Origin: Candidatus Lloydbacteria bacterium RIFCSPLOWO2_01_FULL_50_20
GTDB taxonomy: Bacteria > Patescibacteriota > Minisyncoccia > Phycocordibacterales > UBA6899
Assembly (NCBI GenBank): GCA_001821435.1
Contig: MHLP01000037.1
Span: 1 to 60,102 of the forward strand
Direction of reading: 5' to 3'
DNA length: 60,102 nt
The translations under genes were made by a program, and so were the position numbers. Below the pieces are notes generated by a model that saw nothing but the letters and a program-made list of their open reading frames with translations, was not told the DNA's origin and ran no database searches. Positions 1,427-56,238 of the stretch are shown here, piece after piece; within the stretch, counting starts at the first letter, position 1, and every line of letters begins with the position of its first letter.

Positions 1427-1549
1427 ACATTCAGATTTTTGCGCACTACTCGTCCTTCCCTCAACAAGTCGAGTCACCGTAGATTACTACGGCTTCTCGA
1501 CATTACCTCAGTCCAGGACTTCGCATTGCATCAAAAATCTGAATGTTTA
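1424..1549. repeat. 126-bp palindromic (MITE-like) element with perfect 18-bp terminal inverted repeats between lexA and dinB
   Basis: TAAACATTCAGATTTTTG (1424-1441) is the exact reverse complement of 1532-1549. Internal nested hairpin gtcgag-tca-ccgtag-atta-ctacgg-ctt-ctcgac (1468-1501). Starts on the lexA stop codon. Confidence 0.7.
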
Positions 1550-1579
1550 GAGACACTAACTAGTGGTAGCTAAAATAGA

Positions 1580-11897: not shown

Positions 11898-12209
11898 CAG
11901 CGAATTTTGCTCTGTGTGCGCGCCACGCTTGTTGCGCTTGATACTTTTTTGTTACCTTTTCACTTATCCACTGTTCAATTTTGGTTTTCTATTCACAAGT
12001 ATATAATAGAGGGTAGATTTCGGAAAGGGAATCGGAGGGTTCCCGAAGTGTTGTTTTTTACCACGGCTAGCGAGGAGCGCGTGCAAAATGCTGATTTTAC
12101 ACAGTGTCCGAGCGACGACGTGGACAAAGGTGAATGCCGCGCGGCTCTGCCCCAGGGACCTTTACTCACAATGCTTGTTTGCGCGTTTATTATTTTTTTA
12201 ATAAATAAC

Positions 12210-35984: not shown

Positions 35985-37264
<1,280 letters not shown>

Positions 37265-37281: not shown

Positions 37282-37485
37282 CTATTTCCTCTCTTTGAAA
37301 AGTCGTTCGTATTTACGTGCCCAATCTGGAGCACTCCACTCGAACAGAGTGAGAGAAAATCTTCCCAACTTTCTGAGAATAACGCAAACCTCAGGCTTGT
37401 CCTTGTTTACTTTCAGCTCCTTCTCGATTTCAGCTACTATCGCGGCGACGGTTCCCGCAGAGGCAAATTCAGAAAACATACCCAT
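37282..37485 (-). CDS. Small hypothetical protein (67 aa)
   Basis: GAGGT SD 5 nt upstream of ATG 37485. Non-repetitive sequence MGMFSEFASAGTVAAIVAEIEKELK... Confidence 0.4.
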   Translation of the reverse strand: MGMFSEFASAGTVAAIVAEIEKELKVNKDKPEVCVILRKLGRFSLTLFEWSAPDWARKYERLFKERK

Positions 37486-37547
37486 CGCTACCTCACTATG
37501 GTTGGTTGTTGAAAGAAAGAAGCATGAGCATTTTGCCTCCATCCGAC

Positions 37548-37576
37548 TTTACAAACGTTAGCATATAGTTTATACT
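37548..37576 (+). promoter_or_regulatory. Promoter TTTACA-N17-TATACT of the uvrB leader
   Basis: -35 at 37548-37553 and -10 at 37571-37576. ATG 37585 lies 8 nt after the -10, so the transcript is leaderless or nearly so. Confidence 0.5.
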
Positions 37577-37584
37577 CTGTCAAC

Positions 37585-37698
37585 ATGTCTGGATTTAAAT
37601 TGAGGTCAGATTGGGCGCCTGCGGGAGACCCCATAGCAAAGCAAGGCTTGCTATGGGGCGAGAAGTGCCTTTTTAATATATTCCTGCATCATGGATAA
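37585..37698 (+). other. 37-codon uORF: diverged copy of UvrB residues 1-15, then the conserved hairpin; stop overlaps the uvrB ATG
   Basis: MSGFKLRSDWAPAGD against UvrB MDKFKLKSDWLPAGD. The uORF TAA at 37696-37698 overlaps ATG 37691 (ATGGATAA). Confidence 0.7.
37629..37658 (+). repeat. Hairpin motif shared with the uvrA leader
   Basis: CCCCATAGCAA-agcaaggc-TTGCTATGGGG (11-bp stem). 26/33 nt identical to 44294-44326. Confidence 0.75.
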
Positions 37699-39739
37699 AT
37701 TTAAATTAAAAAGCGACTGGCTTCCTGCTGGAGATCAACCGAAGGCGATAAAGCAACTCACCGATGGATTGGCAAAAAATATGCGTTACCAGACGCTACT
37801 TGGTGTTACCGGCTCAGGAAAAACCTTCACCGTCGCGAACGTGATACAAGCGGTTCAAAAACCGACGCTGGTCATCGCGCACAATAAAACACTTGCCGCT
37901 CAGCTTGCGCAAGAGTATCGCTCGTTCTTCCCAGACAACGCGGTGCACTATTTTGTTTCATACTACGACTACTATCAGCCAGAAGCGTATCTCCCAACCA
38001 CCGACACCTATATTGAGAAAGATGCACAGATCAACGAAGAGATCGACCGTTTGCGCCATGCGTCGACGCAGGCGCTGCTCTCTCGCCCCGATGTCATCAT
38101 TGTCGCTTCGGTCTCGTGCATTTATGGCCTCGGATCTCCGGACGAATATCTCAAGGTGAATCTGAAACTTTCCGTCGGCGACAGGCTTTCCCGAAATGAC
38201 CTCATCCGTAAGCTCGTGAATGTTTATTTTGACCGCACCAATGCGGATCTGCAGCCAGGAACTTTTCGCGGCATAGGGAATACGCTTGAAGTCATGCCGA
38301 CAGGAGAGGTGATGATCTATCAGATCACCTTCTCGGGAAGCGCGGTCGAGTCGATCCTGAAGATCAATCCGATCACTCGAGCGGTCGTCGGGAATGAAGA
38401 GACCTGTTTTTTCTTTCCGGCGAAGCACTTTATTACACCGGAAACCGAACGCAAACGCGCGGTCGAGGATATCAAAATGGAACTTGCCGAGCGCTTGAAA
38501 GTGCTCGATGGAGAAAAAAAGCTTCTTGAAGTCGAACGCCTCAAGCGCCGCACAAAATATGATATCGCAATGATTGAGGAGGTGGGTTACTGTAGCGGTA
38601 TCGAGAACTATTCACGCCATTTTTCTGGAAAAACGCCTGGTGAGCCGCCGGAGACCCTGCTTTCTTATTTTCCCCACAATGCGAACGGAACACCTGATTT
38701 TCTCACTATTATCGACGAATCGCACGTTACCGTTCCGCAATTGCGCGGGATGTATGCGGGCGATCAGTCGCGCAAAAAAACCCTCGTCGAGCATGGTTTT
38801 CGTCTCCCTTCCGCATGTGACAACCGCCCGCTCACATTTACTGAATGGGAAAAACGCATCGGGGCGGTGATCTTCACTTCGGCGACACCGGCGGATTTCG
38901 AAAGAGCAGTGAGCGAGCAGGTGGTCGAGCAGGTCATTCGCCCGACCGGACTTGTCGACCCTGAGATCGTCGTGCGGCCGGTCGTGCAAAAAGGCGATTA
39001 TTCGGGACAAATCACTGACTTCATTGCTGAGGCGGCGGCAGTTGTCAAAAAAGGAGAACGTATCCTCGTGACGACACTGACTAAAAAAATGGCCGAAGAT
39101 CTTTCCGTATACCTCAAAGAGAAAGGCGTGAAGGCGGAATACCTCCATAGCGATGTGAAGACGATGGATCGCATTCGCATACTTACCGAGTTCCGCAAGG
39201 GCACATTTGACTGTCTTGTGGGCGTCAACCTGCTCCGCGAAGGACTCGATCTCCCCGAAGTTTCTTTAGTCGCAATCCTTGATGCGGACAAAGAAGGATT
39301 TCTCCGCTCCGAAACATCGCTTATTCAGACGATTGGCCGCGCCGCACGCAATGTCGCCGGCCGCGTGCTTCTCTATGCGGACGTGATGACCGGCTCGCTC
39401 TCGGCTGCCATAGGGGAGACCGATCGCCGAAGGAACGTACAGATCGCGTACAATAAAGCCCACGGCATCACTCCGCAGAGTATCCATAAGAAGATTAGGG
39501 ATATTACCGAAGAGCTGGTGTCGACGCATGACAGGGCGCTCAAAGAGCTCTTTTTGCTCGATAAAATGAACTTCATCAAGGATCCGGAAAAGCTTATGAA
39601 GCAAAAAGAAAAAGAAATGCTCGTCGCGGTCAAAGAGCTCGACTTTGAATCCGCGGCGCTCCTCCGTGACGAGATCAAGATGCTCCGGGGTGAGCCTGTA
39701 CATGAGCACAGCAACTCGAAACCGCGAAAAAGACGTTAG
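37691..39739 (+). CDS. uvrB: Excinuclease ABC subunit B
   Basis: GDQPKAIKQL, GVTGSGKTF, FVSYYDYYQPEAY, helicase motifs and the C-terminal UVR domain FESAALLRDEI. Confidence 0.95.
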   Translation: MDKFKLKSDWLPAGDQPKAIKQLTDGLAKNMRYQTLLGVTGSGKTFTVANVIQAVQKPTLVIAHNKTLAAQLAQEYRSFFPDNAVHYFVSYYDYYQPEAYLPTTDTYIEKDAQINEEIDRLRHASTQALLSRPDVIIVASVSCIYGLGSPDEYLKVNLKLSVGDRLSRNDLIRKLVNVYFDRTNADLQPGTFRGIGNTLEVMPTGEVMIYQITFSGSAVESILKINPITRAVVGNEETCFFFPAKHFITPETERKRAVEDIKMELAERLKVLDGEKKLLEVERLKRRTKYDIAMIEEVGYCSGIENYSRHFSGKTPGEPPETLLSYFPHNANGTPDFLTIIDESHVTVPQLRGMYAGDQSRKKTLVEHGFRLPSACDNRPLTFTEWEKRIGAVIFTSATPADFERAVSEQVVEQVIRPTGLVDPEIVVRPVVQKGDYSGQITDFIAEAAAVVKKGERILVTTLTKKMAEDLSVYLKEKGVKAEYLHSDVKTMDRIRILTEFRKGTFDCLVGVNLLREGLDLPEVSLVAILDADKEGFLRSETSLIQTIGRAARNVAGRVLLYADVMTGSLSAAIGETDRRRNVQIAYNKAHGITPQSIHKKIRDITEELVSTHDRALKELFLLDKMNFIKDPEKLMKQKEKEMLVAVKELDFESAALLRDEIKMLRGEPVHEHSNSKPRKRR

Positions 39740-39793
39740 CGCCGGTATTTGTTCCTTTCGGGCAGGGCATTCAGGTGCTATACTTTTCTTTGT

Positions 39794-41080
39794 ATGTACA
39801 CGGCAAAGTATCAGGACACTCAGCTTTCTTCCGCTGACTGGCTCATCACATTGCGCTGGTATTACGCACCCATTGCTTTTCTCTTGGCATTGTTCATGAG
39901 GGAAGAGACCGGACTGGTGAACGCGGAGTTCATGCTCACTGCATCCTTTGTCGTTGTCTTCGCCGTCAATCTTATTTTTTTCTTTTTGCTTCGGAGTATC
40001 GCAGGAGGAGTATTTTCCCGCGAAGCCATCCAGGCATTGCTTGCCGGACAGATCGTTCTCGATCTCTCGTTTTTCTTTGTCGTTCTACTGACGACCGGAG
40101 GGGGAGCGGAAAGCATCGGTCATTTCTTTTTTCTTTTTCCGATCGCCGTCTCGATGCTTTTTTTCGGACCTGCGGGACTTATTGTTACCGCAGTGCTTTC
40201 CGGCATACTTATTTTTCTTTCTGTGCTATTCAATGCCGGTATGTTCTTGCAGGCAGGTGTTATCACCATTGATCCGATATTTACCCCCGTGCTTCTCCGG
40301 GCACTTGTCGAGAGTGGGATCATCTCGTTTCTCTACCTTTTTGGAGGATTATTTGCGATCTCCTTGTTCCAACAGTTGAGAAGTCACGATGTTGCTCTTC
40401 TTAGTGCGATCACGGATATGGTGCATCAGTTGCGCACCCCGCTTTCAGGGCTGAAATGGACGTTTAAGATCCTTTTGGATGAAGATGCGGGAAAAGATAC
40501 GGAAGAAGAACGGGAACTGCTTGCTAAGGGTTCTGCTGCGAATGAGCGTATGATCACGCTGGTGAATGACGTCCTTGCCGTCGCCCGCCTTGAATCGGGT
40601 AAATTTACGTACCATTTTATTCCCGTTCATATCGAGCTCTTGATCGAAGAGACGATCAAGAGCCTTGCTCTTGTTGCAGAAGCGAAAGAGATCCGTCTGA
40701 ATTTTGTCGCACCGAAGCATCCATTGCCTGAATGGAAAGTTGATCCCGAGAAAATGCGCGATGTGCTCCAGAATCTTATCAGCAACGCGATCAAATACAC
40801 GCGGGTGAAAGATGCGATCACGCTCAACGCAGAGGTTAAGGAAAATCACTTGCATATACAAGTCGAGGACAATGGCATTGGTATCTCCGATACGGCGACA
40901 AAGAAGATCTTCACTCGCTTTTTCCGCGCAGAAAACGCCATAGCAGTCGAAGCGGACGGATCCGGCCTCGGTCTTTTTATTGCGCAGAATATCGTTCATG
41001 CCCATCACGGAAAGATCTGGTTCGAGCATGCTGCTTCAGGTGGGACAGTGTTCCACGTGCTTCTCCCTAAAAGGCCGTAA
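39794..41080 (+). CDS. Membrane sensor histidine kinase
   Basis: About 6 N-terminal TM helices. H-box MVHQLRTPLSGL. N-box NLISNAIKYT. G-box GSGLGLFIAQ. Confidence 0.85.
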   Translation: MYTAKYQDTQLSSADWLITLRWYYAPIAFLLALFMREETGLVNAEFMLTASFVVVFAVNLIFFFLLRSIAGGVFSREAIQALLAGQIVLDLSFFFVVLLTTGGGAESIGHFFFLFPIAVSMLFFGPAGLIVTAVLSGILIFLSVLFNAGMFLQAGVITIDPIFTPVLLRALVESGIISFLYLFGGLFAISLFQQLRSHDVALLSAITDMVHQLRTPLSGLKWTFKILLDEDAGKDTEEERELLAKGSAANERMITLVNDVLAVARLESGKFTYHFIPVHIELLIEETIKSLALVAEAKEIRLNFVAPKHPLPEWKVDPEKMRDVLQNLISNAIKYTRVKDAITLNAEVKENHLHIQVEDNGIGISDTATKKIFTRFFRAENAIAVEADGSGLGLFIAQNIVHAHHGKIWFEHAASGGTVFHVLLPKRP

Positions 41081-41105
41081 CGTATTGTGCTATACTCGTT
41101 TTCAT

Positions 41106-41915
41106 ATGCAGACTGCCGGCGCAAAAAGGATCCTCATCGTTTCAAATGACGAGGCGCTCACCAAAGCGCTCCCCGAATTTCTCACTCAATCCGGATATGA
41201 GCCGTTCACTACCTCGGAAATTATAACGGCGAGTACGGAATTTGAACGACTGCACCCTCATTTGGTGATCCTCGATCTCGGAAAAGAGACCCAGCATGCA
41301 ATGCATTTCCTTGAAACCATCCGCGCCAACCCCAACCGCCACATGGCTCAAATACCCGTATTGATCGGATCGGAGAATGGGAATCTCTTAGATATCAGCT
41401 GCGCTCTCAAACTTGGAGCGAAGGAATATTTTATTAAAAGATCTTCCCTGCCTGCGGATATATTGAAAAAAGCAGAGAAGTGCTTCGGAGACGCGAATGG
41501 CATGACTAATGTTCTTTCTGCAAAAGTACTTATGGTGGAAGATGACAAATTCCTCCGTGAGCTTGCCATACAGAAATTCACCAAAGAGGGGATGAAGACC
41601 ATTGCTGCGATGGACGGCGAACAGGCGGTTATGCTGGCCGAAAAAGAGCTTCCCGATATCATTCTCCTCGATATTTTGCTTCCCGGTATCGATGGTTTTG
41701 AAGCACTGAAGCGCATACGCGCGAATGCTGCGCTTCTCAAAACTCCCGTATTTATGCTTTCAAATTTCGGGCAAGCGGAAGATATCGCAAGGGCGAAAGA
41801 ACTTGGCGTGGATCAATTTCTAGTAAAGGCAAATTACACGCTGGATGAGATCGTCGTTATGGTGCGCGAAAGTCTGGCAAAGGTGAAAGCGTCTCCTCAG
41901 CGCCTATCCTCATAA
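41106..41915 (+). CDS. Response regulator with two receiver domains and no output domain
   Basis: REC1: RILIVSNDEA...LVILDL. REC2: KVLMVEDDKF...IILLDILLPGIDG...FMLSN...K. Confidence 0.8.
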   Translation: MQTAGAKRILIVSNDEALTKALPEFLTQSGYEPFTTSEIITASTEFERLHPHLVILDLGKETQHAMHFLETIRANPNRHMAQIPVLIGSENGNLLDISCALKLGAKEYFIKRSSLPADILKKAEKCFGDANGMTNVLSAKVLMVEDDKFLRELAIQKFTKEGMKTIAAMDGEQAVMLAEKELPDIILLDILLPGIDGFEALKRIRANAALLKTPVFMLSNFGQAEDIARAKELGVDQFLVKANYTLDEIVVMVRESLAKVKASPQRLSS

Positions 41916-41965
41916 TCACCGGAACATGAAAATAGCCAATACTCCTTTGACAAATCACCTGCAAG

Positions 41966-42409
41966 GTGGAATATAAGGTAAGGTGTCGTTTTCAATTTTA
42001 TAAAGGAAATGCCGTGTGCCCCCAAAAGGTTCCTCCATTTCTGCCGGAACATGAGGCCACTGCTCTCGTAAGAAGCATGGTGCGAGAGAACTTCATGCGC
42101 TCACTTTCCGTCGGTTTCATCAAAAAATACGCTGGTCATCCGAGCGTGATCGCATTGACCGATCTCAAGCGTTGGAAAACGCGTTTCGAAGAGATGGTCG
42201 AAGGGTTTACCCCGGAAGAAAAAATACATACGCTGCGCATGATCGCGACTTTTATCCAGTATTGGGATACTCTTTCCAAAAAGGAGCGGAGTATCGCCGC
42301 ACACGAGATTGCGGTTGCGCTTATCGCCAAGCAAAGGGCCACCAACGTGCTCAAAGAAATGGCCGCTGACCCGAACGCGTATCTGCCCGTTTCAACGACT
42401 CTTCAATAG
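41966..42409 (+). CDS. Hypothetical protein (start uncertain)
   Basis: GTG-start ORF with alternative ATG at 42077. No motif recognised. Confidence 0.35.
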   Translation: MEYKVRCRFQFYKGNAVCPQKVPPFLPEHEATALVRSMVRENFMRSLSVGFIKKYAGHPSVIALTDLKRWKTRFEEMVEGFTPEEKIHTLRMIATFIQYWDTLSKKERSIAAHEIAVALIAKQRATNVLKEMAADPNAYLPVSTTLQ

Positions 42410-42421
42410 GGTCAACTGTAG

Positions 42422-42451
42422 CCGCTCCTCTTTTTTGCAGGGGCGGTTTTT
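42422..42451 (+). terminator. Rho-independent terminator
   Basis: ccgctcct / aggggcgg stem followed by ttttt. Confidence 0.6.
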
Positions 42452-42506
42452 CTTGCGGCGTTGTAGTGTGCTTTTCATTTTTGCAATAAGTAGTAGAGTC
42501 TACTAT

Positions 42507-43601
42507 ATGTCAGAGCGATTTTCTGTAATGAAAGTGCTCTATCGGTCGGTATTGAAGCCGGTGCTTTTTAGGTTAACGACACCCGATACCGCGCACGACA
42601 TCTTTGTCGCTGTCGGAGAATTTGCGGGGAAATATGCGATCTTGCGGGCTCTGGTGTCATTTTTTTATGAATACAAAGGGAAAAATATCTCGAAAGTTGT
42701 CGACGGCATCACCTACCGTACGCCGATCCTGCTTTCGGCGGGTTTTGACAGCAACGGCAGGCTGACGAGAATATTGCGCTCAATGTCTTTTGGCGGCGAG
42801 GAGATCGGCTCCACGACTGCAAAACTGTGCGAAGGGAATCCGCTTCCTCGGATGACCCGCCTCGTTCGCAATAAAAGCATCGTCGTCTATAAGGGTCTGC
42901 GTAACGACGGGGTTGATGCGCTCATTCGCCGCCTCAAACAGACGCCAAGAATACCGGAATATGTTATAGGCGTTTCCATCGCCCGGACGAACAGCAAAGA
43001 AGTGAACAAGACCATCGAGGCCGGCATCGCGGATTATGTCGAGACATTCAAAAAATTGAACGAAGCGAATATCGGCGATTATTATACGATCAATATCTCC
43101 TGCCCGAATTCTTTCGGGGGTGAAACATTCATTGACCCCACATTATTTCCTCGACTTATGGCCGAGCTCTCGAAAGTGAAGTGCACGAAACCCCTCTATA
43201 TAAAGATGCCGATAAATATTCCGTGGAACGATTTCAAGCAACTGCTTGAAACGGCGGATACCTACGGGGTACAGGGAGTTATCATCGGCAATCTCAACAA
43301 GAATTACAAAGATCTCGATCATCCCGAGGATGCGCCCGCCCAGTTTCGCGGGGGACTGTCGGGAAAACCGTGCTTTACGCTTTCGAATGAGCTGATCAAA
43401 AAAACCCGCGCGAAATACGGCAAACGCCTCACGATCATCGGCGTCGGGGGAATTCTCACTCCCGAAGACGCTCTGGAGAAATTTAAAGCAGGAGCCGATC
43501 TTATCCAGATGATCTCAGGCATGATCTTCGGTGATCCTGGAATGATGAAAGCGATCTGCGAAAGATACGCTGAATGGAAATCGCACGCGGTGTCGCAATG
43601 A
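42507..43601 (+). CDS. pyrD: Dihydroorotate dehydrogenase (class 2-like)
   Basis: PILLSAGFDSNG, INISCPNS, GGLSGKP and IIGVGGI motifs. Start trimmed to MSERFSV. Confidence 0.85.
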   Translation: MSERFSVMKVLYRSVLKPVLFRLTTPDTAHDIFVAVGEFAGKYAILRALVSFFYEYKGKNISKVVDGITYRTPILLSAGFDSNGRLTRILRSMSFGGEEIGSTTAKLCEGNPLPRMTRLVRNKSIVVYKGLRNDGVDALIRRLKQTPRIPEYVIGVSIARTNSKEVNKTIEAGIADYVETFKKLNEANIGDYYTINISCPNSFGGETFIDPTLFPRLMAELSKVKCTKPLYIKMPINIPWNDFKQLLETADTYGVQGVIIGNLNKNYKDLDHPEDAPAQFRGGLSGKPCFTLSNELIKKTRAKYGKRLTIIGVGGILTPEDALEKFKAGADLIQMISGMIFGDPGMMKAICERYAEWKSHAVSQ

Positions 43602-43709
43602 CCGCTTTTCGTTTTGACACGCGTGCTTGACGAGATTAAATAAGCATGTTAGTCTTTCCATAGCTTGTAAAGCAGTAAACATTCGTCGACCCAACCTTAG
43701 GAGATTGCA

Positions 43710-44105
43710 ATGGACAACTATTTTCTCTGGACACCAGTATTGTTTATCGTTTGTGCAGTTGTGCTGTTCATCTCAGTTGGCATAGCATCTAACTGGAAGG
43801 AATCTGGCCGCGGCATAGTCGTAACCGCTTTTCTGGTAGGAGTGTTCTGCTTGGTCTTTGGGTTGGTGGCTGTCTACGCGAACGGTAAAGGAAAACCGGT
43901 TGTGATTGAACAAGCACAAGCGTTCAAGAACCAGCGTTTGGTGGTTGGAGAAACCTATACCACTGTGAGTGTGACGGAATATGCTGGAGTGACGTATTAT
44001 ATCCTCAAGGGCAAGGATGGCGTACGCTTCTACTCAAGTAAGGAAGCAGTGCCTAAAAAGTTCATTGTCCAAAAGGATTATGGACTTAGGGAAATTGAGA
44101 ATTGA
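43710..44105 (+). CDS. Hypothetical membrane protein
   Basis: Two TM helices. taggag SD upstream. Confidence 0.55.
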   Translation: MDNYFLWTPVLFIVCAVVLFISVGIASNWKESGRGIVVTAFLVGVFCLVFGLVAVYANGKGKPVVIEQAQAFKNQRLVVGETYTTVSVTEYAGVTYYILKGKDGVRFYSSKEAVPKKFIVQKDYGLREIEN

Positions 44106-44119
44106 GTGAAGCAACCCAA

Positions 44120-44147
44120 CCGCCCACGAGAAGTGGACGGTTTTTTT
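44120..44147 (+). terminator. Rho-independent terminator
   Basis: ccgcccac-gagaa-gtggacgg plus T7. Confidence 0.7.
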
Positions 44148-44188
44148 GTGTAATTAGACTACGTAGTAGAGAATGATAAGAGTAAGAT

Positions 44189-44217
44189 TTGTTATTTTTA
44201 TAAAATTGTGTTACAAT
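44189..44217 (+). promoter_or_regulatory. Promoter TTGTTA-N17-TACAAT of the uvrA leader
   Basis: -35 at 44189-44194 and -10 at 44212-44217 with an upstream TG. uORF ATG at 44232. Confidence 0.5.
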
Positions 44218-44231
44218 CGACCGCTTGCCAT

Positions 44232-44342
44232 ATGATTGAGAAACCACACAAAAGTGAGGAACAGGAGACCATCATCGTCAAAGGCGCTCGCCCCCCGAAG
44301 CAAAGCAGGGCTTGCTACGTGGCAGGCCCACAATCTTTATGA
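44232..44342 (+). other. 36-codon uORF: contains a diverged copy of the UvrA N-terminal IIVKGAR block, then the conserved hairpin; stop overlaps the uvrA ATG
   Basis: [20 protein letters not shown] against Uvr[20 protein letters not shown]. atcatcgtcaaaggcgctcgc against ataattgttaaaggcgctcgt (17/21). ATGA overlap at 44339-44342. Confidence 0.7.
44293..44322 (+). repeat. Hairpin motif shared with the uvrB leader
   Basis: CCCCGAAGCAA-agcagggc-TTGCTACGTGG. One base pair changed compensatorily relative to the uvrB copy (A-U to G-C). Confidence 0.7.
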
Positions 44343-46963
44343 AAGAGCAAAGTAAAATAATTGTTAAAGGCGCTCGTACGCACAATTTGAAGAACATCAC
44401 CGTCACGATGCCACGGAACAAGATGATCGTATTCACCGGACTTTCGGGGTCAGGGAAGTCGTCGCTAGCTTTCGACACGATCTTTGCCGAAGGTCAGCGG
44501 CGTTATGTCGAGTCACTCTCCGCGTACGCGCGGCAGTTCCTCCACCAAATGCAGAAGCCCGACGTCGACGAGATCGTCGGCCTTTCGCCCGCTATTTCCA
44601 TCGATCAGAAATCGCATTCCTCCAACCCGCGTTCGACGGTTGCCACGATCACGGAGATCTACGACTATCTGCGCGTGCTTTTTGCGCGCGTCGGCATCCC
44701 GCACTGCTTGCTCTGCGGAAAGCCGATCAAACGCCTGACCAACGAGGAGATCATGGGGATCGTATTCGATCGCGTCGAAGAGATAGGGAAGCATTCACCA
44801 AAAGATGAGGTCATGGGTGTTCCGTATTCGACGCTCAAGGTGGGGATCTATGCCCCGCTCGTCCGAGGGAGAAAAGGAGAGTATTACCAATTGCTTTATG
44901 ATTATTTGAGCAAGGGCTACAGCAAGGCGCGTATTGACGGAAAGCAAAAAAATCTTCGAGAACAGATCATCCTGGCGAAACAGAAAAAGCACGATGTCGA
45001 TATCTTGGTGGATGAATTTTTTGTTTCCGAATTTCGCGATAACACCAAAGGAGTTCGGGAACGTTTGTCCGAGGCCGTGGAGCGCGCTCTCGGCGAAGCG
45101 GAAGGGCTTGTGCGTCTCGTGATCGGCGATGAAGAAACATTAATGTCCGCAAAGTTCGCGTGTCCCGACGACGGTTTTTCTTATCCTGAGGTAGAGCCGA
45201 GACTTTTTTCATTCAATTCTCCTTACGGTGCCTGTCAAACATGCAACGGGCTCGGAACGAAGCATTTTTTCGGTGATGAGCCGTGCGAGGTCTGCGGCGG
45301 GAAGCGCCTTCGTGAAGAAGCACTCCATGTAACGATTGGCGACCCCGTAGTAGAAGCCAAAAGGGCTTCACTACAGGGCAAGCATAAGAAAACTCAAGAA
45401 TCGCGCGGAAAAAGTATCGTCGAGGTGACCGATATGTCGATCGAGGAAGCAAGCAGATTTTTCGGGGGGTTGACGCTCACTCCTATGGAGCGGCAGATCT
45501 CATCGGTCGTGATCAAGGAGATCGAAAGCCGCCTCAGTTTTATGCTCGACGTCGGGATCGGTTATCTCACGCTCGGACGCCGTGCAAATACGCTTTCTGG
45601 CGGCGAGGCGCAGCGCATACGACTCGCTTCACAGCTTGGCTCACGCCTTGTCGGGGCGCTCTATGTGCTCGATGAGCCGACGATCGGTCTTCATCAGAAA
45701 GATAATGACCGCCTCATCAAAACGCTCCGTAATCTGTGCGACATCGGAAACACGATCATTGTCGTTGAGCATGATGAAGATACGATCTTCGCTTCGGATT
45801 ATCTCGTTGATATCGGTCCAGGCGCCGGCGTGCACGGCGGGCACATTGTTGCCTCCGGCTATCTTGAAGACCTGCTTCTGGATAAAAAAGCAAAATCACT
45901 CACACTTGATTATCTCCGCAAGGATAAGCAAATTCCGCTCCCTGAAAAACGCAGAGTGAAAGACAAGGGGGCGCTGGGGCTGCGCGGCGGAAAGGCATTT
46001 AACATCACGAACATGAACGTGGATATTCCGCTCGGCCGCCTCGTCACGGTTACCGGAGTTTCCGGGTCGGGAAAATCGACCTTTCTTTATGAACTCATAT
46101 ACAAAAATCTGCAGGCGCGTTTCGACCGGCGTTATCGTTCCCCGAAAACCTATAATTGTGCAGAGTTCACCGGAACGGAATATCTGCATCGCGCGATCTT
46201 GATCGACCAGTCGCCGATCGGGCGCACTCCGCGCTCAAATCCCGCGACCTATACCGGAGCATGGACGTTCGTACGTGACCTCTTTGCGGAAACGGAAGAA
46301 GCCCGCGTACGCGGCTGGAGAGCATCGCGATTTTCTTTCAATGTGAAAGGCGGGCGCTGCGAAGCCTGTGAAGGGAACGGCATGGTCGCCGTGGAAATGC
46401 ACTTCCTTCCGACCGTGTATGTCCTTTGCGATGTGTGTCAGGGCAAACGTTTTCAAAAAGAAACACTGGAGGTGAAATTCAAAAAGAAAAATATTTATGA
46501 AGTCCTGAAGATGACCGTCGAGGAGGCCTGCGAGTTCTTTCGCGACATTCCCGCCATCGAAGATCGGCTGAAGACGTTGAACGATGTGGGACTGGGTTAT
46601 TTGGAGCTTGGGCAATCAGCAACAACGCTTTCGGGCGGTGAGGCGCAGCGCGTAAAAATTGCTTCAGAACTCTATCGTCCGTTCCAGCAGCGCACGATCT
46701 ATCTCTTGGATGAGCCGACCATCGGTCTCCACTACGAGGATGTGAAGAAGCTTATTGAGATCCTTCAGGCGCTCGTGGAGAAAGGGAACAGCGTACTCAT
46801 GATCGAGCACAATCTCGATGTGATCAAATCCTCAGACTATGTCATTGACATTGGTCCGGACGGCGGCTCTGGCGGAGGGCAGCTTGTCGCCAGGGGAACA
46901 CCTGAGGAGATCGCGAATAATCCAAAGTCATATACGGGGAAATATTTGAAACGTTCGTTATGA
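44339..46963 (+). CDS. uvrA: Excinuclease ABC subunit A
   Basis: [23 protein letters not shown], zinc-finger Cys pairs, LSGGEAQR twice and two ABC modules. Confidence 0.95.
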
Positions 46964-46982
46964 AGGTAACACACAAACGCAT

Positions 46983-48335
46983 ATGTTGGTTCAGGAACTC
47001 AAAAAACTCAAATTGCCTGATGAGCCGGGGGTATATGAATTCATCGACGCGCGCCGAAAGATACTCTATATCGGCAAAGCGGCGTCGCTTCGTGAGCGCG
47101 TGCGCAGTTATTTTGCGAATGATCTTTTGCATACGCGGGGAAAACATCTCGTTGATATGGTCACGCTTGCCCATGCGGTGCGATTCATTCGCGTCGATTC
47201 CGTGCTTGATGCGATCATCCTTGAGGCGAGTCTGATAAAAAAGCATCAGCCACTTTACAATACAAAAGAAAAAGACGACAAAAGCTGGAATTACGTCGTC
47301 ATTACCAAGGAGGCATATCCCGCGGTACTCACTATCCGCGAGCGCACGATGTTTCTCGGAGAACATGAACGAAAAAAGTACCGCTACACGTTCGGGCCGT
47401 TTCCGCAGGGAACAAACCTGAAGGAGGCACTCAAGATCGTGAGGAAGATCTTTCCTTTTCGCGATACATGCTCGCCTGCAAAGGCTGAAGGAGTTTCGAC
47501 AGGCAAACCTCTCGCGGGAAAGCCCTGCTTCAATCGTCAGATCGGATTATGTCCCGGCGTGTGTACGGGGGAAATAAGCAAGGAAGAGTACGCCGAGCGG
47601 ATACGGCAGATCGCACTTTTTTTTGCAGGCAGAAAAAGCGTGTTACTCAAACAGCTCGAACGATCAATGCGTACGCATGCGAAAGCGCTCGAATTTGAGG
47701 CGGCAGGAGAGTATAAACGAATGATCTTTGCGCTAAAGCACATCAAAGATGTCGCACTCATTAACAGTGAAGTGCGCGCACATTCGCAAAAAACCTCAAG
47801 AAAGCGCACCAGACCGTTTCGCATTGAGGCATATGATGTCGCGCACATTTCCGGCAGGTACACCGTCGGAGTGATGACTGTTGTCGAAGATGGACGCCCG
47901 AAGCCGTCAAATTATCGTAAATTCAAGATCCGCCCCGAAGTGATCCGCAAGGTCAGGGATACCGCTCCAGTAGCAGAACAGGGTTCAGTACAGGACGCTA
48001 CGGGGCAAACATCGGAAGTGAAAGTCAATGACGTGCTTCATCTCGAACAAGTGCTGTTGCGCCGTTTGAGACACAAGGAGTGGCCCAGACCGGACATCAT
48101 CGTGGTCGACGGCGGAGTTGCGCAGAAACGGAGAGCGGAAAAGGCGGTCAAAGAGGCTGGTCTTTCCCTTACGGTTCTCTCAGTCGTCAAAGACGAGCGA
48201 CATAAACCGCGCATGATCCTTGGCAATAAAGAGCTCGCATTGTCTTATGAGCGCGGTATCCTTATTGCAAACGGGGAAGCACACCGTTTTGCCGTCGCCT
48301 ATCATAGAAAATTGAGAGGGAGACTGCCTCTTTAG
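46983..48335 (+). CDS. uvrC: Excinuclease ABC subunit C, short form (no C-terminal (HhH)2)
   Basis: GIY-YIG (PGVYEF...ILYIGKA...YN), UVR domain (ALEFEAAGEYKRMI) and the RNase-H-like endonuclease region (IEAYDVAHISG...VVDGG). Ends at 450 aa. Confidence 0.85.
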   Translation: MLVQELKKLKLPDEPGVYEFIDARRKILYIGKAASLRERVRSYFANDLLHTRGKHLVDMVTLAHAVRFIRVDSVLDAIILEASLIKKHQPLYNTKEKDDKSWNYVVITKEAYPAVLTIRERTMFLGEHERKKYRYTFGPFPQGTNLKEALKIVRKIFPFRDTCSPAKAEGVSTGKPLAGKPCFNRQIGLCPGVCTGEISKEEYAERIRQIALFFAGRKSVLLKQLERSMRTHAKALEFEAAGEYKRMIFALKHIKDVALINSEVRAHSQKTSRKRTRPFRIEAYDVAHISGRYTVGVMTVVEDGRPKPSNYRKFKIRPEVIRKVRDTAPVAEQGSVQDATGQTSEVKVNDVLHLEQVLLRRLRHKEWPRPDIIVVDGGVAQKRRAEKAVKEAGLSLTVLSVVKDERHKPRMILGNKELALSYERGILIANGEAHRFAVAYHRKLRGRLPL

Positions 48336-48375
48336 GGGGATAACTATTCCGCACAAGAAGATATATAATGTTCTT

Positions 48376-49347
48376 ATGTCGAAGATCAGAGTCGGAGTGG
48401 TGCGCGGAGGTCCTTCTGCTGAATATCCTGTTTCTCTCAAAACGGGCGAAAGCGTACTGCGCAATCTGGACGCGGGAAAATATGCGCCCGTGGATATTTT
48501 ACTGACCAAGCGGGGAGAGTGGTACATGAAAGGGCTGCGCACTGATCTCGGTTCAATAGCTGAGCGCGTCGACGTCATTTGGAATGCGCTCCACGGTACA
48601 TTCGGAGAAGACGGCAAAGCGCAGCGGCTTTTTGAATCATTCGGGATTCCTTATACCGGTTCGGACACTCTTGCTTCCGCGCTCGGTATGCACAAAGGTC
48701 TCGCAAAGGAACGATTCAAAGAGGCCGGACTGTTCACCTCGGATGGAGTTGTCGCGGCAAGCGGAGACCGTTTCGACGATATCATGGACGAACTTACACG
48801 GAATCCGAATTTGCGCCCACCGGTGATCGTCAAACCCATCGCGGGAGGCTCTTCAGTTGCGACAAAGATCGTGTGGGATGTTTCGGAATTACAAGAGGCG
48901 ATCAATGAGGCGAGTCGTTACGGCGATGTGTTGATCGAGGAATATCTTCCGGGTAAAGAGGCGACCGTTTGCGTGGTAGACGGAAGCGAAGAAGGCGCTT
49001 CACTTGTCTTTCATCCGATCGAGATCGTTCCGCCAGAGTCGAACGGTTTCTTCGACTATGAAGCGAAATATTCAGGGATATCAAAAGAGATCTGCCCGGG
49101 ACGATTTACTCCCGACGAGCACGACCAGCTTCGCGACCTTGCACTGCGTGCGCATCGTGCGATCGGGGCGCGGCATTATTCTCGGTCGGATTTCATCGTC
49201 TCTCCCAGGGGGATCGCTATCCTTGAGATCAATACATTGCCCGGATTAACGGAGGAGTCATTGTTTCCCAAAGCGCTTCACGCAGGCGGTGTGACTCTGC
49301 CTGAGTTCATTGATCATGTGATCGCCTTGGCTTTGTATAAAAAATAA
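48376..49347 (+). CDS. ddl: D-alanine--D-alanine ligase
   Basis: RVGVVRGGPSAEYPVSL, ATP-grasp VIVKPIAGGSSV, and EINTLPGLTE. Confidence 0.9.
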   Translation: MSKIRVGVVRGGPSAEYPVSLKTGESVLRNLDAGKYAPVDILLTKRGEWYMKGLRTDLGSIAERVDVIWNALHGTFGEDGKAQRLFESFGIPYTGSDTLASALGMHKGLAKERFKEAGLFTSDGVVAASGDRFDDIMDELTRNPNLRPPVIVKPIAGGSSVATKIVWDVSELQEAINEASRYGDVLIEEYLPGKEATVCVVDGSEEGASLVFHPIEIVPPESNGFFDYEAKYSGISKEICPGRFTPDEHDQLRDLALRAHRAIGARHYSRSDFIVSPRGIAILEINTLPGLTEESLFPKALHAGGVTLPEFIDHVIALALYKK

Positions 49348-50095: not shown

Positions 50096-50168
50096 GGGCC
50101 CATAGCTCAGTTGGTAGAGCGCTACATTTGCAATGTAGATGTCAGCGGTTCGAATCCGCTTGGGTCCA
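50096..50168 (+). tRNA. tRNA-Ala(UGC), 3' CCA not encoded at this end
   Basis: Cloverleaf by hand: acceptor gggccca/tgggtcc with G3:U70, anticodon arm ctaca-ttTGCaa-tgtag, T arm agcgg-ttcgaat-ccgct. Confidence 0.9.
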
Positions 50169-50340
50169 CAACGAGTCTGCGAGGTGGGGAACCGAGGAGT
50201 GAGCTGCTTCACTCCGGGGCGGATTCGAAAGGGTTTTCATTATCGAGCGACCAATTTTTCTTAGCGGTACTCCGCTTAGAAAAGTGGAAGTGCCCGTAGT
50301 GGTGTCTTCGAGATTGAAAACCACCCGTTGCGGTAGGCAA

Positions 50341-50361
50341 CGAATCCGCTTGGGTCCACCA
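50341..50361 (+). repeat. Second copy of the tRNA-Ala(UGC) 3' end (19-nt perfect direct repeat), here with encoded CCA
   Basis: cgaatccgcttgggtccac at 50151-50169 and again at 50341-50359. The second copy continues as CCA. Confidence 0.85.
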
Positions 50362-50412
50362 AGCGAAATATCGAGCTATATTATTCAGTAACAAGATCGA
50401 AAATGACTCAGC

Positions 50413-52691: not shown

Positions 52692-52913
52692 AACGATTAT
52701 AATTAAATAGTTATAAATTATTAATGTAGTGGACAAGCTAAGGGTTAAATAAATATACAGCTTCGATTAGTGGCGGAAACATATTATCATACACCGTCAC
52801 TATGAAATTTCTCTGAAGCGGAATATTTCTTTGCATATTGGCATATTTTTGCTATATTTCTTGAGTTCTTGAGGAGGGCCCGTAGCTCATCTGGTAGAGC
52901 GCGTCATTTTCAC

Positions 52914-53020
52914 CCTGTTAGACATAGGCCATGCGGGCCTATCGTATAGTGGTAGTACACGGCATTCGCATTGCCGGGACGCCAGTTCGATTCTGGCTAG
53001 GTCCACCAATGTCTAACAGG
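52914..53020. repeat. 107-nt insert bounded by a perfect 12-bp inverted repeat
   Basis: CCTGTTAGACAT (52914-52925) is the reverse complement of ATGTCTAACAGG (53009-53020). Confidence 0.85.
52935..53008 (+). tRNA. tRNA-Ala(CGC) with encoded CCA, nested inside the interrupted tRNA
   Basis: Acceptor gggccta/taggtcc with G3:U70, D arm gtat-agtggta-gtac, anticodon arm cggca-ttCGCat-tgccg, T arm gccag-ttcgatt-ctggc, then ACCA. Confidence 0.85.
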
Positions 53021-53075
53021 GCGGGTTGACGAGGCAAGCGGTTCGAGTCCGCTTGGGTCCACAAAAGACACAAAC

Positions 53076-56199: not shown

Positions 56200-56238
56200 C
56201 CCTGTAGTAGACCGCTTCTCTCTAGGCTTACTACAGGG
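56200..56238 (+). terminator. 10-bp hairpin after the nuclease gene
   Basis: ccctgtagta-N19-tactacaggg. No clear T-run. Confidence 0.35.

What the first reader, a model, noticed from the sequence alone, without database searches (positions are those of the whole stretch)
44189..44377. uvrA shows the same design: native promoter, pseudo-N-terminus uORF, hairpin, and ATGA overlap with the real start
The promoter is TTGTTA-N17-TACAAT (44189-44217). ATG 44232 opens [20 protein letters not shown]. The IIVKGAR block (44271-44291) is a 17/21-nt copy of codons 7-13 of the real UvrA ([19 protein letters not shown], 44357-44377), including an identical 11-mer AAAGGCGCTCG at the break.

Where THNLKN should follow, the sequence instead enters the shared hairpin (44293-44322). 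The 36-codon ORF ends with TGA at 44340-44342, overlapping the uvrA ATG 44339 (ATGA).

Two unlinked nucleotide-excision-repair genes with the same unusual leader argue for a common mechanism rather than accident. That could be a small insertion cassette that repairs its target's 5' end, or a shared translational control.
Basis: partly seen in the sequence, partly recalled or inferred. Interest (0 to 1): 0.75.

Follow-up and report, generated by a model that had tools for sequence, protein, structure and literature searches.

The report
Hairpin-bounded replacement of uvrA's start
The original start of the DNA-repair gene uvrA has been pushed aside by a roughly 50-base hairpin insert that brings a substitute start. 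The same kind of hairpin sits beside displaced ends of several other housekeeping genes in related uncultivated bacteria, which points to an undescribed way of swapping gene ends.

Summary
It is identical in independent assemblies.

The upstream ORF is the displaced native start of uvrA. Relatives carry this long N-terminus fused directly to THNLKN behind the same promoter.

Between the displaced start and the working start lies one member of a palindromic element family, CCCYGTAG…CTACRGGG. Five copies occur in the window:
- the uvrB leader
- the uvrA leader
- in frame inside uvrA
- in frame inside uvrC
- one intergenic site

In related Patescibacteria, the same hairpins separate a displaced native end from a working end in five gene families:
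- uvrA, at both the 5' and 3' ends
- uvrB
- msrA
- ychF
- tgt

Displaced and working copies differ almost only at synonymous sites: 57 synonymous against 18 amino-acid-changing codons, where about 9.5 synonymous are expected at random. They are therefore orthologous ends from different lineages, not a decayed target duplication.

Near-identical strains carry both filled and empty alleles.

On the gene side the junction is homologous. On the hairpin side it always lies at the distal hairpin foot, but at varying target positions.

Best reading: this is a hairpin-ended, homology-anchored replacement of a gene end, and uvrA is now translated after the leftover uORF through the ATGA overlap. It is not NER-specific regulation. 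The enzyme responsible is unknown.

The parts
44189..44217 (+). Native uvrA promoter, TTGTTA-N17-TACAAT with a TG-extended -10.
   Evidence: Found by the consensus scan. It is homologous to the promoters that sit directly in front of intact uvrA in L018, L019 and L025.
44232..44291 (+). Displaced native 5' end of uvrA: 20 codons, [20 protein letters not shown].
   Evidence: It matches the long N-termini of most relatives, for example P0032 [27 protein letters not shown]. It differs from the working copy only at synonymous sites over IIVKGAR.
44232..44342 (+). Leftover upstream ORF of 36 codons. It reads from the displaced start through the hairpin, and its TGA overlaps the uvrA ATG (ATGA).
   Evidence: In three other out-of-frame cases (window uvrB, L025, L026), the uORF stop lies between -17 and +8 nt of the working start.
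44293..44322 (+). Palindromic element CCCCGAAGCAAAGCAGGGCTTGCTACGTGG, a member of the CCCYGTAG…CTACRGGG family.
   Evidence: Across 8 copies, 92% of stem cells are paired and two pairs show compensatory changes. No Rfam family matches.
44323..44338 (+). Tail and spacer of the insert, CAGGCCCACAATCTTT.
   Evidence: GGCAGGCCCACAATC is identical in the uvrA insert of L021, whose UvrA is only 72% identical.
44339..44377 (+). Substitute 5' end, [13 protein letters not shown], continuous with functional uvrA. The block 44357-44377 repeats 44271-44291.
   Evidence: Short N-termini of the MKEQ.K type are scattered among UvrA lineages. The nucleotide sequence is nearly identical to N' of L025, although the gene bodies are only about 80% identical.
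44339..46963 (+). Functional uvrA, 874 aa.
   Evidence: Gene callers in public assemblies use the same start (P0001).
37548..37576 (+). Native uvrB promoter, TTTACA-N17-TATACT, lying 8 nt before the displaced ATG.
   Evidence: It is homologous to the promoters in L026 and L027.
37585..37629 (+). Displaced native 5' end of uvrB, MSGFKLRSDWAPAGD.
   Evidence: It matches the N-termini of the closest relatives (P0123, P0125, P0127, P0129)..
37629..37658 (+). Palindromic element CCCCATAGCAAAGCAAGGCTTGCTATGGGG, with a perfect 11-bp stem.
   Evidence: The orthologous site in L026 has a different hairpin interior but the same tail and the same N'.
37659..37690 (+). Tail of the uvrB insert. It contains a terminator-like hairpin with a T run, and a -10-like TATATT (37677-37682) placed 8 nt before the working ATG.
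   Evidence: The spacing is the same as between the native TATACT and its ATG.
37691..39739 (+). Functional uvrB with the substitute N-terminus MDKFKLKSDWLPAGD.
45343..45378 (+). A family member inside the uvrA ORF, in frame (…IGD|[12 protein letters not shown]|KHKK…).
   Evidence: It lies in a linker that is hypervariable among relatives.
47933..48005 (+). A family member inside the uvrC ORF, in frame, containing a nested degenerate copy.
   Evidence: UvrC here is 450 aa, against 430 and 397 aa in L018 and L019.
56200..56238 (-). An intergenic family member, 43 nt after the stop codon of a PD-(D/E)XK nuclease gene. There is no displaced gene end here.

Best explanation
The uvrA leader is the product of a DNA-level replacement of the gene's end, with a small palindromic element at the joint.

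What was inserted (shown). A segment was joined into the resident uvrA just after codon 20. It consists of a hairpin element (family CCCYGTAG…CTACRGGG, followed by a CA[A/G]G-type tail), a short spacer, and an alternative uvrA start from another lineage.

The two junctions (shown by comparison):
- On the gene side the join is homologous. It lies inside or just after IIVKGAR.
- On the other side the join is illegitimate. It always falls exactly at the distal foot of the hairpin, but at a variable position in the recipient gene.
- As a result, part of the native end is either duplicated (this window, L021, L023) or deleted (L025).

What was left behind (shown). The resident promoter and first 20 codons remain as a uORF.

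Expression now (inferred). Transcription comes from the old promoter. The uORF is translated from a nearly leaderless mRNA, and uvrA is translated by termination-reinitiation at the ATGA overlap.

Agent of the event (inferred, not shown). The hairpin is a mobile, REP/MITE-like element whose 5' foot defines one end of a single-stranded or nicked intermediate. That intermediate carries neighbouring DNA with it, either through one-ended mobilisation by a hairpin-recognising nickase, or through exonuclease trimming of transformed DNA back to the hairpin. It then integrates through short homology at its 3' end.
For: - Native versus substitute end. Relatives have the long N-terminus continuous with the gene behind the homologous promoter. 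At the uvrA 3' end in L019 and the tgt 3' end in L026, the displaced copy matches the clade consensus while the working copy is atypical.
- Recurrence. The architecture 'displaced end | hairpin foot … tail - working end' is seen at the uvrA 5' end (window, L021, L023, L025), uvrB 5' end (window, L026), msrA 5' end (L011), ychF 3' end (L002, L006), uvrA 3' end (L019/L024) and tgt 3' end (L026).
- Orthologous copies. There are 57 synonymous-only codon differences against 18 amino-acid-changing ones. Random substitution gives 9.5 ± 2.9.
- Recent events. Filled and empty uvrA alleles show almost no mismatches over about 2.2 kb of gene body.
- Variable hairpin-side junction. It falls after codon 3 in L025, after R in the window, after R+AC in L021, and after RTH in L023.
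- Structure conserved. There are compensatory changes in the stem, and orthologous sites have wholly different but still palindromic interiors.
- DNA-level polarity. The motif strand is not conserved relative to transcription, because ychF has it on the opposite strand. Its polarity relative to the displaced-to-working direction is conserved.
- Translation context. Shine-Dalgarno motifs are rare and -10 boxes lie close to start codons in this genome.
Against: - No enzyme gene was found. None of the 40 window proteins scanned with Pfam is a transposase, integrase, HUH protein or reverse transcriptase.
- No two loci share an identical full cassette. Only the hairpin core is shared between uvrA and uvrB.
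- The upstream region also differs between the filled allele (L025) and the empty allele (L019). That polymorphism could therefore be transfer of a whole haplotype by ordinary recombination, rather than a fresh insertion.
- L018 has the short N-terminus with no hairpin. The short form may therefore be a natural allele rather than part of a cassette.
- Translation coupling has not been tested.
- The displaced/working pairs were partly recognised by amino-acid similarity, which biases the codon test.
Confidence: 0.6

Rival explanations
1. This is a dedicated cis-regulatory leader for damage-response genes. The uORF and hairpin would be selected to control translation or attenuation of uvrA and uvrB, and the peptide copy of the N-terminus would be part of the sensing device.
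For: - The uORF stop overlaps or lies close to the working start in all four out-of-frame cases.
- Four of the five family copies in the window lie in uvrA, uvrB or uvrC.
- The other hosts include msrA and ychF. Those are stress-related by general knowledge.
- The amino-acid sequence of the displaced copies is preserved.
- LexA is encoded in the window.
Against: - The motif is on the non-coding strand at ychF. At ychF, uvrA 3' and tgt 3' it lies after the stop codon.
- In L021 and L023 the insert is simply read through in frame.
- L025 has lost nearly all of the pseudo-N-terminus.
- Close relatives do without the structure entirely (L018, L019, L027).
- There is no T run after the uvrA hairpin.
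- The hairpin interior is swapped between orthologous uvrB sites.
Confidence: 0.1
2. This is a miniature integrative element moved by a site-specific (tyrosine or serine) recombinase supplied in trans. The repeated block would be attL/attR, and the element would carry the substitute gene end as part of attP, as phage 21 and e14 do at icd.
For: - There is a displaced native end plus an element-borne working end, with mostly synonymous differences.
- An identical 11-mer sits at the break in the window, and an identical 18-mer in L023.
- The same gene site is used in distant lineages.
Against: - The junction position differs between independent uvrA inserts by 1 to about 50 nt.
- The identical block next to the joint is only 0-5 nt at uvrB, msrA and ychF.
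- The gene-side boundary lies anywhere from about 39 nt to about 400 nt into the gene.
- No integrase was found among the 40 proteins scanned.
- One hairpin type serves many unrelated target genes.
Confidence: 0.1
3. The hairpin element transposed into the gene and created a long target duplication. The working copy was later overwritten by ordinary homologous recombination with other alleles, which would produce the synonymous differences.
For: - L023 has nearly identical duplicates: 24 of 26 bases, with an 18-nt identical run.
- Family members also sit alone inside ORFs and in intergenic DNA, so the hairpin can insert by itself.
- Recombination tracts between lineages are visible: L025 has a roughly 400-nt tract of 10-15% divergence at its 3' end.
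Against: - No known transposition mechanism gives target duplications ranging from about 20 to about 80 nt.
- L025 shows a deletion of the target, not a duplication.
- The working copies carry extra parts that the displaced copy lacks, such as their own start codon, a -10 box or a whole promoter.
- The solitary in-ORF copies have no flanking duplication.
Confidence: 0.15
4. This is an assembly or binning artefact that stitched two strain variants of the 5' end in tandem.
For: The window comes from a metagenome. The two copies look like alleles from different lineages.
Against: - The sequence is identical in independent assemblies made from different samples and with different assemblers.
- The same conserved hairpin lies at the joint in many genes and samples.
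- Orthologous structures occur in genomes that are 72-91% diverged.
Confidence: 0.02
5. This is programmed translational bypassing. Ribosomes would take off after KGAR of the upstream copy and land after KGAR of the downstream copy, so the native N-terminus would still be used.
For: - Matching peptide context sits before both sites.
- A hairpin follows directly after the putative take-off site.
- Pro-Pro codons lie at the break.
Against: - The take-off and landing codons differ: CGC against CGT, and GAC against GAT in uvrB.
- There is no stop codon at the take-off site.
- The 3'-end cases, the in-frame cases and the L025 deletion case cannot work this way.
Confidence: 0.02

Closest known systems
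Integrative elements that insert into a gene end and carry a replacement copy (phage 21 and e14 at icd in E. coli; islands at tRNA 3' ends). This comparison rests on my own knowledge.
   Same: - The native end is displaced and left as a fragment.
- The working end is supplied by the incoming DNA.
- The two ends differ mostly at synonymous sites, because they come from different hosts.
   Different: - Here the incoming piece is only about 50-130 nt.
- It carries no integrase and has no fixed att core.
- Its junction position varies.
- One hairpin family serves at least five different genes, at either end of the gene.
Short palindromic repeats and MITEs: REP/BIME with RAYT, Rickettsia palindromic elements, Correia elements (review PMC10969869, found).
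   Same: - They are 30-115 nt elements with inverted termini and a conserved hairpin but a variable interior.
- Copies lie in intergenic DNA.
- As with Rickettsia palindromic elements, copies also lie in frame inside ORFs (window 45343 and 47933).
   Different: - None of those families is known to sit at joints between a displaced and a substitute gene end.
- There is no short fixed target duplication here.
- GTAG is paired inside the stem, rather than being a free head as in REP.
- No partner transposase has been identified.
Homology-facilitated illegitimate recombination during natural transformation (Acinetobacter, Streptococcus pneumoniae). This comparison rests on my own knowledge.
   Same: - There is one homologous anchor and one illegitimate joint.
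- The recipient DNA is duplicated or deleted at the joint.
- The foreign tract varies in length.
   Different: The illegitimate joint here is always exactly at the foot of one family of hairpins, and it has a constant polarity. Chance microhomology would not give that.
Integron attC sites and cassettes. This comparison rests on my own knowledge.
   Same: - The sites are structured and probably single-stranded.
- The ends are conserved, the interior is variable, and one base is unpaired (the A in CCCC-A-GTAG).
- They are linked to short DNA modules.
   Different: - There are no RYYYAAC/GTTRRRY core sites.
- There is no attI or IntI nearby.
- The modules are fragments homologous to the target gene, not promoterless ORFs in an array.
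One-ended rolling-circle mobilisation (IS91/ISCR, Helitrons). This comparison rests on my own knowledge.
   Same: - There is one sharply defined end next to a hairpin.
- Variable amounts of adjacent DNA, including gene fragments, are carried along.
   Different: - No Rep/HUH gene was seen.
- The elements here are far smaller.
- Integration here appears to need homology to the carried fragment.
Translational coupling by overlapping stop and start codons (ATGA).
   Same: The uORF stop overlaps the uvrA start, and the gene has no Shine-Dalgarno sequence of its own.
   Different: The upstream cistron here is a gene remnant, not a functional partner gene.

Membership tests
Integrase-type integrative element (att duplication) | A recombinase gene inside the element, or at least in the neighbourhood. 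| tested here: not met
   The insert is 47 nt plus the substitute start and has no ORF. Pfam found no integrase or recombinase in 40 window proteins. The rest of the genome was not examined.
Integrase-type integrative element (att duplication) | The same crossover position and an identical core at both junctions in independent insertions. | tested here: not met
   The uvrA junctions differ between the window, L021, L023 and L025. The identical block is 11 nt here but only 0-5 nt at uvrB, msrA and ychF.
MITE derived from a DDE transposon | Terminal inverted repeats. | tested here: met
   The inverted feet CCCYGTAG / CTACRGGG are present in all copies.
MITE derived from a DDE transposon | A short target-site duplication of fixed length. 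| tested here: not met
   Flanking repeats range from none (45343, 47933, 56200) to 21-78 nt, and L025 shows a deletion instead.
REP / RAYT system | A conserved GTAG head in front of an imperfect palindrome, in an extragenic location, with a RAYT gene in the genome. | tested here: inconclusive
   GTAG is present but is paired with CTAC inside the stem. Several copies lie within genes. No Y1 transposase was found in the window. The whole genome was not available.
Integron attC | R''/R' core sites (RYYYAAC … GTTRRRY) and a nearby IntI/attI. | tested here: not met
   The ends read CCCYGTAG/CTACRGGG. No integrase was found in the window.
Known structured RNA (Rfam) | A match to a curated covariance model. 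| tested here: not met
   There was no match at the gathering threshold or up to E = 5 over 37400-48400.
Transcription attenuator or intrinsic terminator leader | A hairpin followed by a U run, in a fixed orientation relative to the regulated gene. | tested here: not met
   There is no T run after 44322 and no terminator call there. The motif is on the opposite strand at ychF.
Diversity-generating retroelement (template and variable repeats) | Differences between the repeats confined to adenines of the template, with a reverse transcriptase nearby. | tested here: not met
   The differences are of all base types and mostly synonymous. No reverse transcriptase was found among the scanned proteins.
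Translational bypass (T4 gene 60 type) | Identical take-off and landing codons, with a stop codon at the take-off site. | tested here: not met
   The codons are CGC against CGT. The take-off codon is followed by CCC CCG, not a stop.
Overlapping stop-start translational coupling | The upstream ORF's stop overlaps or abuts the downstream start, and downstream translation depends on upstream translation. | tested here: inconclusive
   The ATGA overlap is present and there is no Shine-Dalgarno motif. The dependence itself cannot be tested with sequence tools.

The most novel reading that the evidence does not exclude
Patescibacteria of the Paceibacteria/Lloydbacteria group may harbour an unrecognised class of mobile DNA: hairpin-ended 'gene-end replacement cassettes'.

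- A hairpin-specific enzyme would define the 5' foot.
- Adjacent DNA would be carried along.
- The piece would integrate into the homologous gene of another genome through short homology at its 3' end.

The result would be an insertion in a conserved housekeeping gene that brings its own repair kit: a start codon, sometimes a promoter, or a stop codon.
Probability: 0.3. Interest if true: 0.85.

Novelty: new variant of a known kind. Interest (0 to 1): 0.7.

Why it matters
If this holds, it describes how tiny palindromic elements can colonise even the conserved ends of essential or near-essential genes without killing them. It would also describe a route by which gene ends, promoters and start codons are exchanged between lineages of bacteria with reduced genomes.

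There are practical consequences for annotation of candidate-phyla genomes:
- Displaced ends produce spurious small ORFs.
- They lead to wrong start calls and to fused N-termini. P0096 and P0086 were called as read-through fusions.
- They make genes look 'split'.

The finding also offers a testable system for hairpin-directed recombination in organisms that cannot yet be grown. It further predicts that uvrA expression here depends on translation of a gene remnant.

Tried and rejected
- **Assembly artefact.** Rejected, because independent assemblies are identical.
- **Chance similarity.** Rejected by shuffles.
- **Decayed target duplication.** Rejected by the codon test.
- **Known RNA family.** No Rfam match was found.
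- **Phage vector.** Two scans of viral contigs found no copy of the core motif or of the GTAGTAAGCC-type hairpin.
- **Genome and metagenome scans with the 19-mer.** These returned 15 loci. Only L002/L009, L006, L010 and L011 share the flanks. The rest (Nanoarchaeota, cyanobacteria and others) look like chance or unrelated matches.
- **Literature.** Six searches found nothing that describes this architecture.
- **Shared LexA-type operator.** I read the lexA and dinB upstream regions and saw nothing convincing, so I did not pursue it.
- **Enzyme gene in the window.** Pfam scans of 40 proteins found only housekeeping, glycan-metabolism and signalling proteins, plus one PD-(D/E)XK nuclease.
- **Peptide search for in-frame copies of the hairpin.** Considered but not run, because a 12-16 aa query cannot reach significance in a database of 5.8 billion proteins.
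Full report
**1. The observation**

- a sigma-70-like promoter, TTGTTA-N17-TACAAT, at 44189-44217
- an ATG at 44232 that opens a 36-codon [39 protein letters not shown]
- the TGA of that ORF at 44340-44342, overlapping the uvrA ATG at 44339
- a 17-of-21 repeat of the IIVKGAR codons (44271-44291 against 44357-44377), with the identical 11-mer AAAGGCGCTCG

The flanking repeat scored above all 200 shuffles.

The 19-mer AGCAAAGCARGGCTTGCTA occurs only twice in 60 kb, in the uvrA and uvrB leaders, with none expected by chance.

uvrB (37691-39739) shows the same layout: promoter, then MSGFKLRSDWAPAGD, then the hairpin, then the real MDKFKLKSDWLPAGDQ.

The 251 bases around the uvrA leader are identical in two other assemblies from different samples. 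Ten contigs were read that carry the identical UvrA. The structure is therefore real DNA and not a stitching error.

**2. Which copy is native**

UvrB of the window is essentially identical to that of a Candidatus Lloydbacteria genome from the Rifle aquifer series.

Among 120 UvrA relatives, most have a long N-terminus such as [27 protein letters not shown] or [26 protein letters not shown]. This is the type preserved in the window's upstream ORF. A scattered minority has the short MKEQ.KIIV.GAR form that the window's functional gene uses.

L019 and L018 have the homologous promoter running straight into an intact gene, with no hairpin.

The upstream ORF is thus the displaced original start of uvrA, and the promoter is the original promoter. 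The same holds for uvrB. The displaced MSGFKL.SDWAPAG matches the closest relatives, and L027 is an intact 'empty' version.

**3. The hairpin is one member of a family**

Public scans with the 19-mer returned true relatives in other Patescibacteria. These shared more than the core. Their feet read CCCC(N)GTAG … CTAC(N)GGGG, followed by CA[A/G]G.

Searching for the feet alone found five copies in the window, against 0.9 in shuffles:
- the two leaders
- one in frame inside uvrA (45343-45378), in a linker that is hypervariable among relatives
- one in frame inside uvrC (47933-48005)
- one intergenic copy (56200-56238)

The interiors differ widely but remain palindromic. In the 30-nt subfamily, 92% of stem positions pair and two pairs changed on both sides. 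No Rfam family matches.

**4. The same architecture at other genes**

Read in the orientation of the motif, the order is always the same: displaced native end, then the CCCC foot directly, then the hairpin, tail and spacer, then a working end continuous with the gene.

| Gene and end | Locus | What is seen |
|---|---|---|
| ychF 3' | L002, L006 | …DGDVIEFKI*, then the hairpin on the opposite strand, then VIEFKI* |
| msrA 5' | L011 | Native MKTEIAVFGGG, then hairpin, then two further 129-nt units, each of hairpin + promoter + GTG-SIAVFGGG, the last continuous with CFWC… |
| uvrA 5' | L021, L023 | Same site as the window, but the insert is read through in frame, so gene callers produced fused N-termini |
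| uvrB 5' | L026 | Same junction, tail and substitute start as the window, but a different hairpin interior |
| uvrA 3' | L019/L024 | Atypical working C-terminus, stop, hairpin, then a displaced C-terminus that matches the clade consensus |
| tgt 3' | L026 | Same pattern as the uvrA 3' end |

This makes five gene families affected, at either end of the gene, on either strand. The feature therefore acts on DNA. It is not specific to nucleotide excision repair.

**5. The two copies are orthologous ends, not a decayed duplication**

Over nine displaced/working pairs, 57 codons differ only synonymously and 18 change the amino acid. The same number of random substitutions gives 9.5 ± 2.9 synonymous-only codons, with a maximum of 21 in 2000 trials. 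In L006 all seven codons of the ychF end differ at the wobble base only.

Both copies were therefore shaped by purifying selection before they were placed side by side. One of them came from another lineage.

The pairs were partly recognised by their amino-acid similarity, so the test is somewhat biased. However, the nucleotide-level search found the main pairs independently.

**6. Recent and recurrent events**

P0004/P0007 (short start) and P0005/P0008 (long native start) are about 100% identical in the protein body. At the DNA level, L019 and L025 show almost no mismatches over about 2.2 kb of uvrA.

In L025/L024 the native codons 3-19 are replaced rather than duplicated. The sequence reads: promoter … ATGGCAGA | 63-nt hairpin | spacer | ATGAAAGAGCAAAAAGAACAAAGTAAAATAATTGTAAAG | GGTGCGCGG…

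The hairpin-side junction in uvrA thus lies at four different positions in four lineages. The gene-side boundary lies from about 39 nt to about 400 nt into the gene.

The hairpin plus tail of the window and of L021 are 86% identical, with GGCAGGCCCACAATC identical, although the two UvrA proteins are only 72% identical.

One caveat applies. The region upstream of the promoter also differs between L019 and L025, including a 400-nt indel. That polymorphism may therefore reflect transfer of a whole haplotype.

**7. How it most likely works**

Shown:
- one homologous joint on the gene side
- one illegitimate joint, exactly at the distal hairpin foot, at variable recipient positions
- a working end that is foreign

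Inferred: a DNA intermediate whose 5' end is the hairpin foot and whose 3' part is the neighbouring gene end integrates into the homologous gene. Two routes fit this.
- A hairpin-recognising nickase could mobilise the hairpin together with adjacent DNA, in a one-ended manner similar to IS91 or Helitrons.
- Transformed single-stranded DNA could be trimmed by exonucleases back to the hairpin and then integrated by homology-facilitated illegitimate recombination.

The constant polarity of the motif relative to the displaced-to-working direction favours an element-intrinsic mechanism, but the sample is small. The swapping of hairpin interiors at one orthologous site favours it too. No enzyme was found in the window.

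**8. Expression of uvrA now**

Shine-Dalgarno motifs are rare in this genome, and -10 boxes commonly lie 10-14 nt before start codons, so leaderless or nearly leaderless mRNAs appear to be the norm.

The uvrA insert has no -10 box at a usable distance. The most likely route is therefore transcription from the old promoter, translation of the remnant ORF through the hairpin, and reinitiation at ATGA.

In the three other out-of-frame cases the remnant ORF also stops within -17 to +8 nt of the working start.

The uvrB insert differs in one respect. It carries its own TATATT with the native 8-nt spacing, and a terminator-like hairpin before it, so uvrB may have its own leaderless transcript.

None of this is tested.

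**9. Comparison with what is known**

The logic of a displaced end plus a substitute end is that of integrative elements at icd or at tRNA genes. Three defining features fail here: a recombinase in cis, a fixed core, and a fixed junction.

The hairpins resemble REP elements, MITEs and Rickettsia palindromic elements in size, inverted feet and in-frame residence in ORFs. Those families are not known to mark replaced gene ends.

The joints resemble homology-facilitated illegitimate recombination, except that the illegitimate end is always the same hairpin foot.

Integron attC sites, diversity-generating retroelements, attenuators and translational bypass were each tested on their defining features, and none was met.

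I found no paper describing this architecture. The library does not cover everything.

**10. Verdict**

The uvrA leader is one instance of a wider, apparently undescribed association between a palindromic element family and replaced gene ends in Paceibacteria. The mechanism and the enzyme remain open.

Noticed in passing
window 52876-53066: A tRNA nested inside a tRNA. A tRNA-Ala-like cloverleaf (with G3:U70) carries an 11-bp helix, CCCTGTTAGAC/GTCTAACAGGG, in its anticodon-loop region. That helix encloses a complete tRNA-Ala(cgc) at 52935-53008. The fold energy is -84.9 kcal/mol, z = -5.4.
   Followed up: partly
window 50096-50362: tRNA-Ala(tgc) is followed 190 nt later by a second copy of its 3' end, this one with CCA (CGAATCCGCTTGGGTCCACCA). 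The roughly 170 nt in between match no Rfam family. This is another 'gene end repeated across a small insert' layout, involving a different insert.
   Followed up: partly
window 36037-37264: The tgt gene (queuine tRNA-ribosyltransferase) is split into two ORFs by a perfect 13-bp hairpin of another type, AACGTCCGACCTT…AAGGTCGGACGTT at about 36403-36442. A TGA lies in the hairpin loop and an ATG restart lies 15 nt after the hairpin. Relatives have a single ORF.
   Followed up: partly
window 45343-45378 and 47933-48005: Members of the hairpin family sit in frame inside uvrA and uvrC. With the two leaders, four of the five copies in the window lie in the three NER genes.
   Followed up: partly
L019 about 5140-5300 and L024 (uvrA 3' end): The uvrA 3' end has an atypical working C-terminus, …RSYTAKYLQRVLKRR*, followed by the hairpin CCTCATAGTAACGCCTTTGGCGATTCCTATGAGG. 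After that comes a displaced C-terminus, [25 protein letters not shown], which matches the clade consensus.
   Followed up: yes
L026 1040-1160 and 3480-3680: The tgt 3' end shows a working end, then a hairpin, then the displaced native end [18 protein letters not shown]. The uvrB C-terminal tail is interrupted by a 115-nt hairpin that supplies a new tail and stop codon, and the native …ANKHPRRRR* is left behind it.
   Followed up: partly
L025 190-720 versus L019 2310-2470: Upstream of the uvrA promoter there is a stretch that begins with a family-like foot, CCCCGTAGTAGCC. In L025 this stretch holds a 104-aa ORF, apparently a small membrane protein. L019 lacks the ORF except for its last codons.
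   Followed up: no
window 749-2803: LexA (Peptidase_S24 plus the LexA DNA-binding domain) and a Y-family polymerase lie side by side, so the organism has an SOS-type regulator. I did not find a shared operator in the uvrA and uvrB promoters.
   Followed up: partly
window, start regions of 37 genes: Shine-Dalgarno motifs are rare, present at about 5 of 37 start codons. TATAAT-like hexamers often begin 10-14 nt before the start codon, which suggests widespread leaderless mRNAs.
   Followed up: partly
window 16296-16393: Short imperfect tandem repeats, ACC/GAC-rich with a 9-36 nt register, lie inside the 1625-aa ORF at 11907-16784.
   Followed up: no
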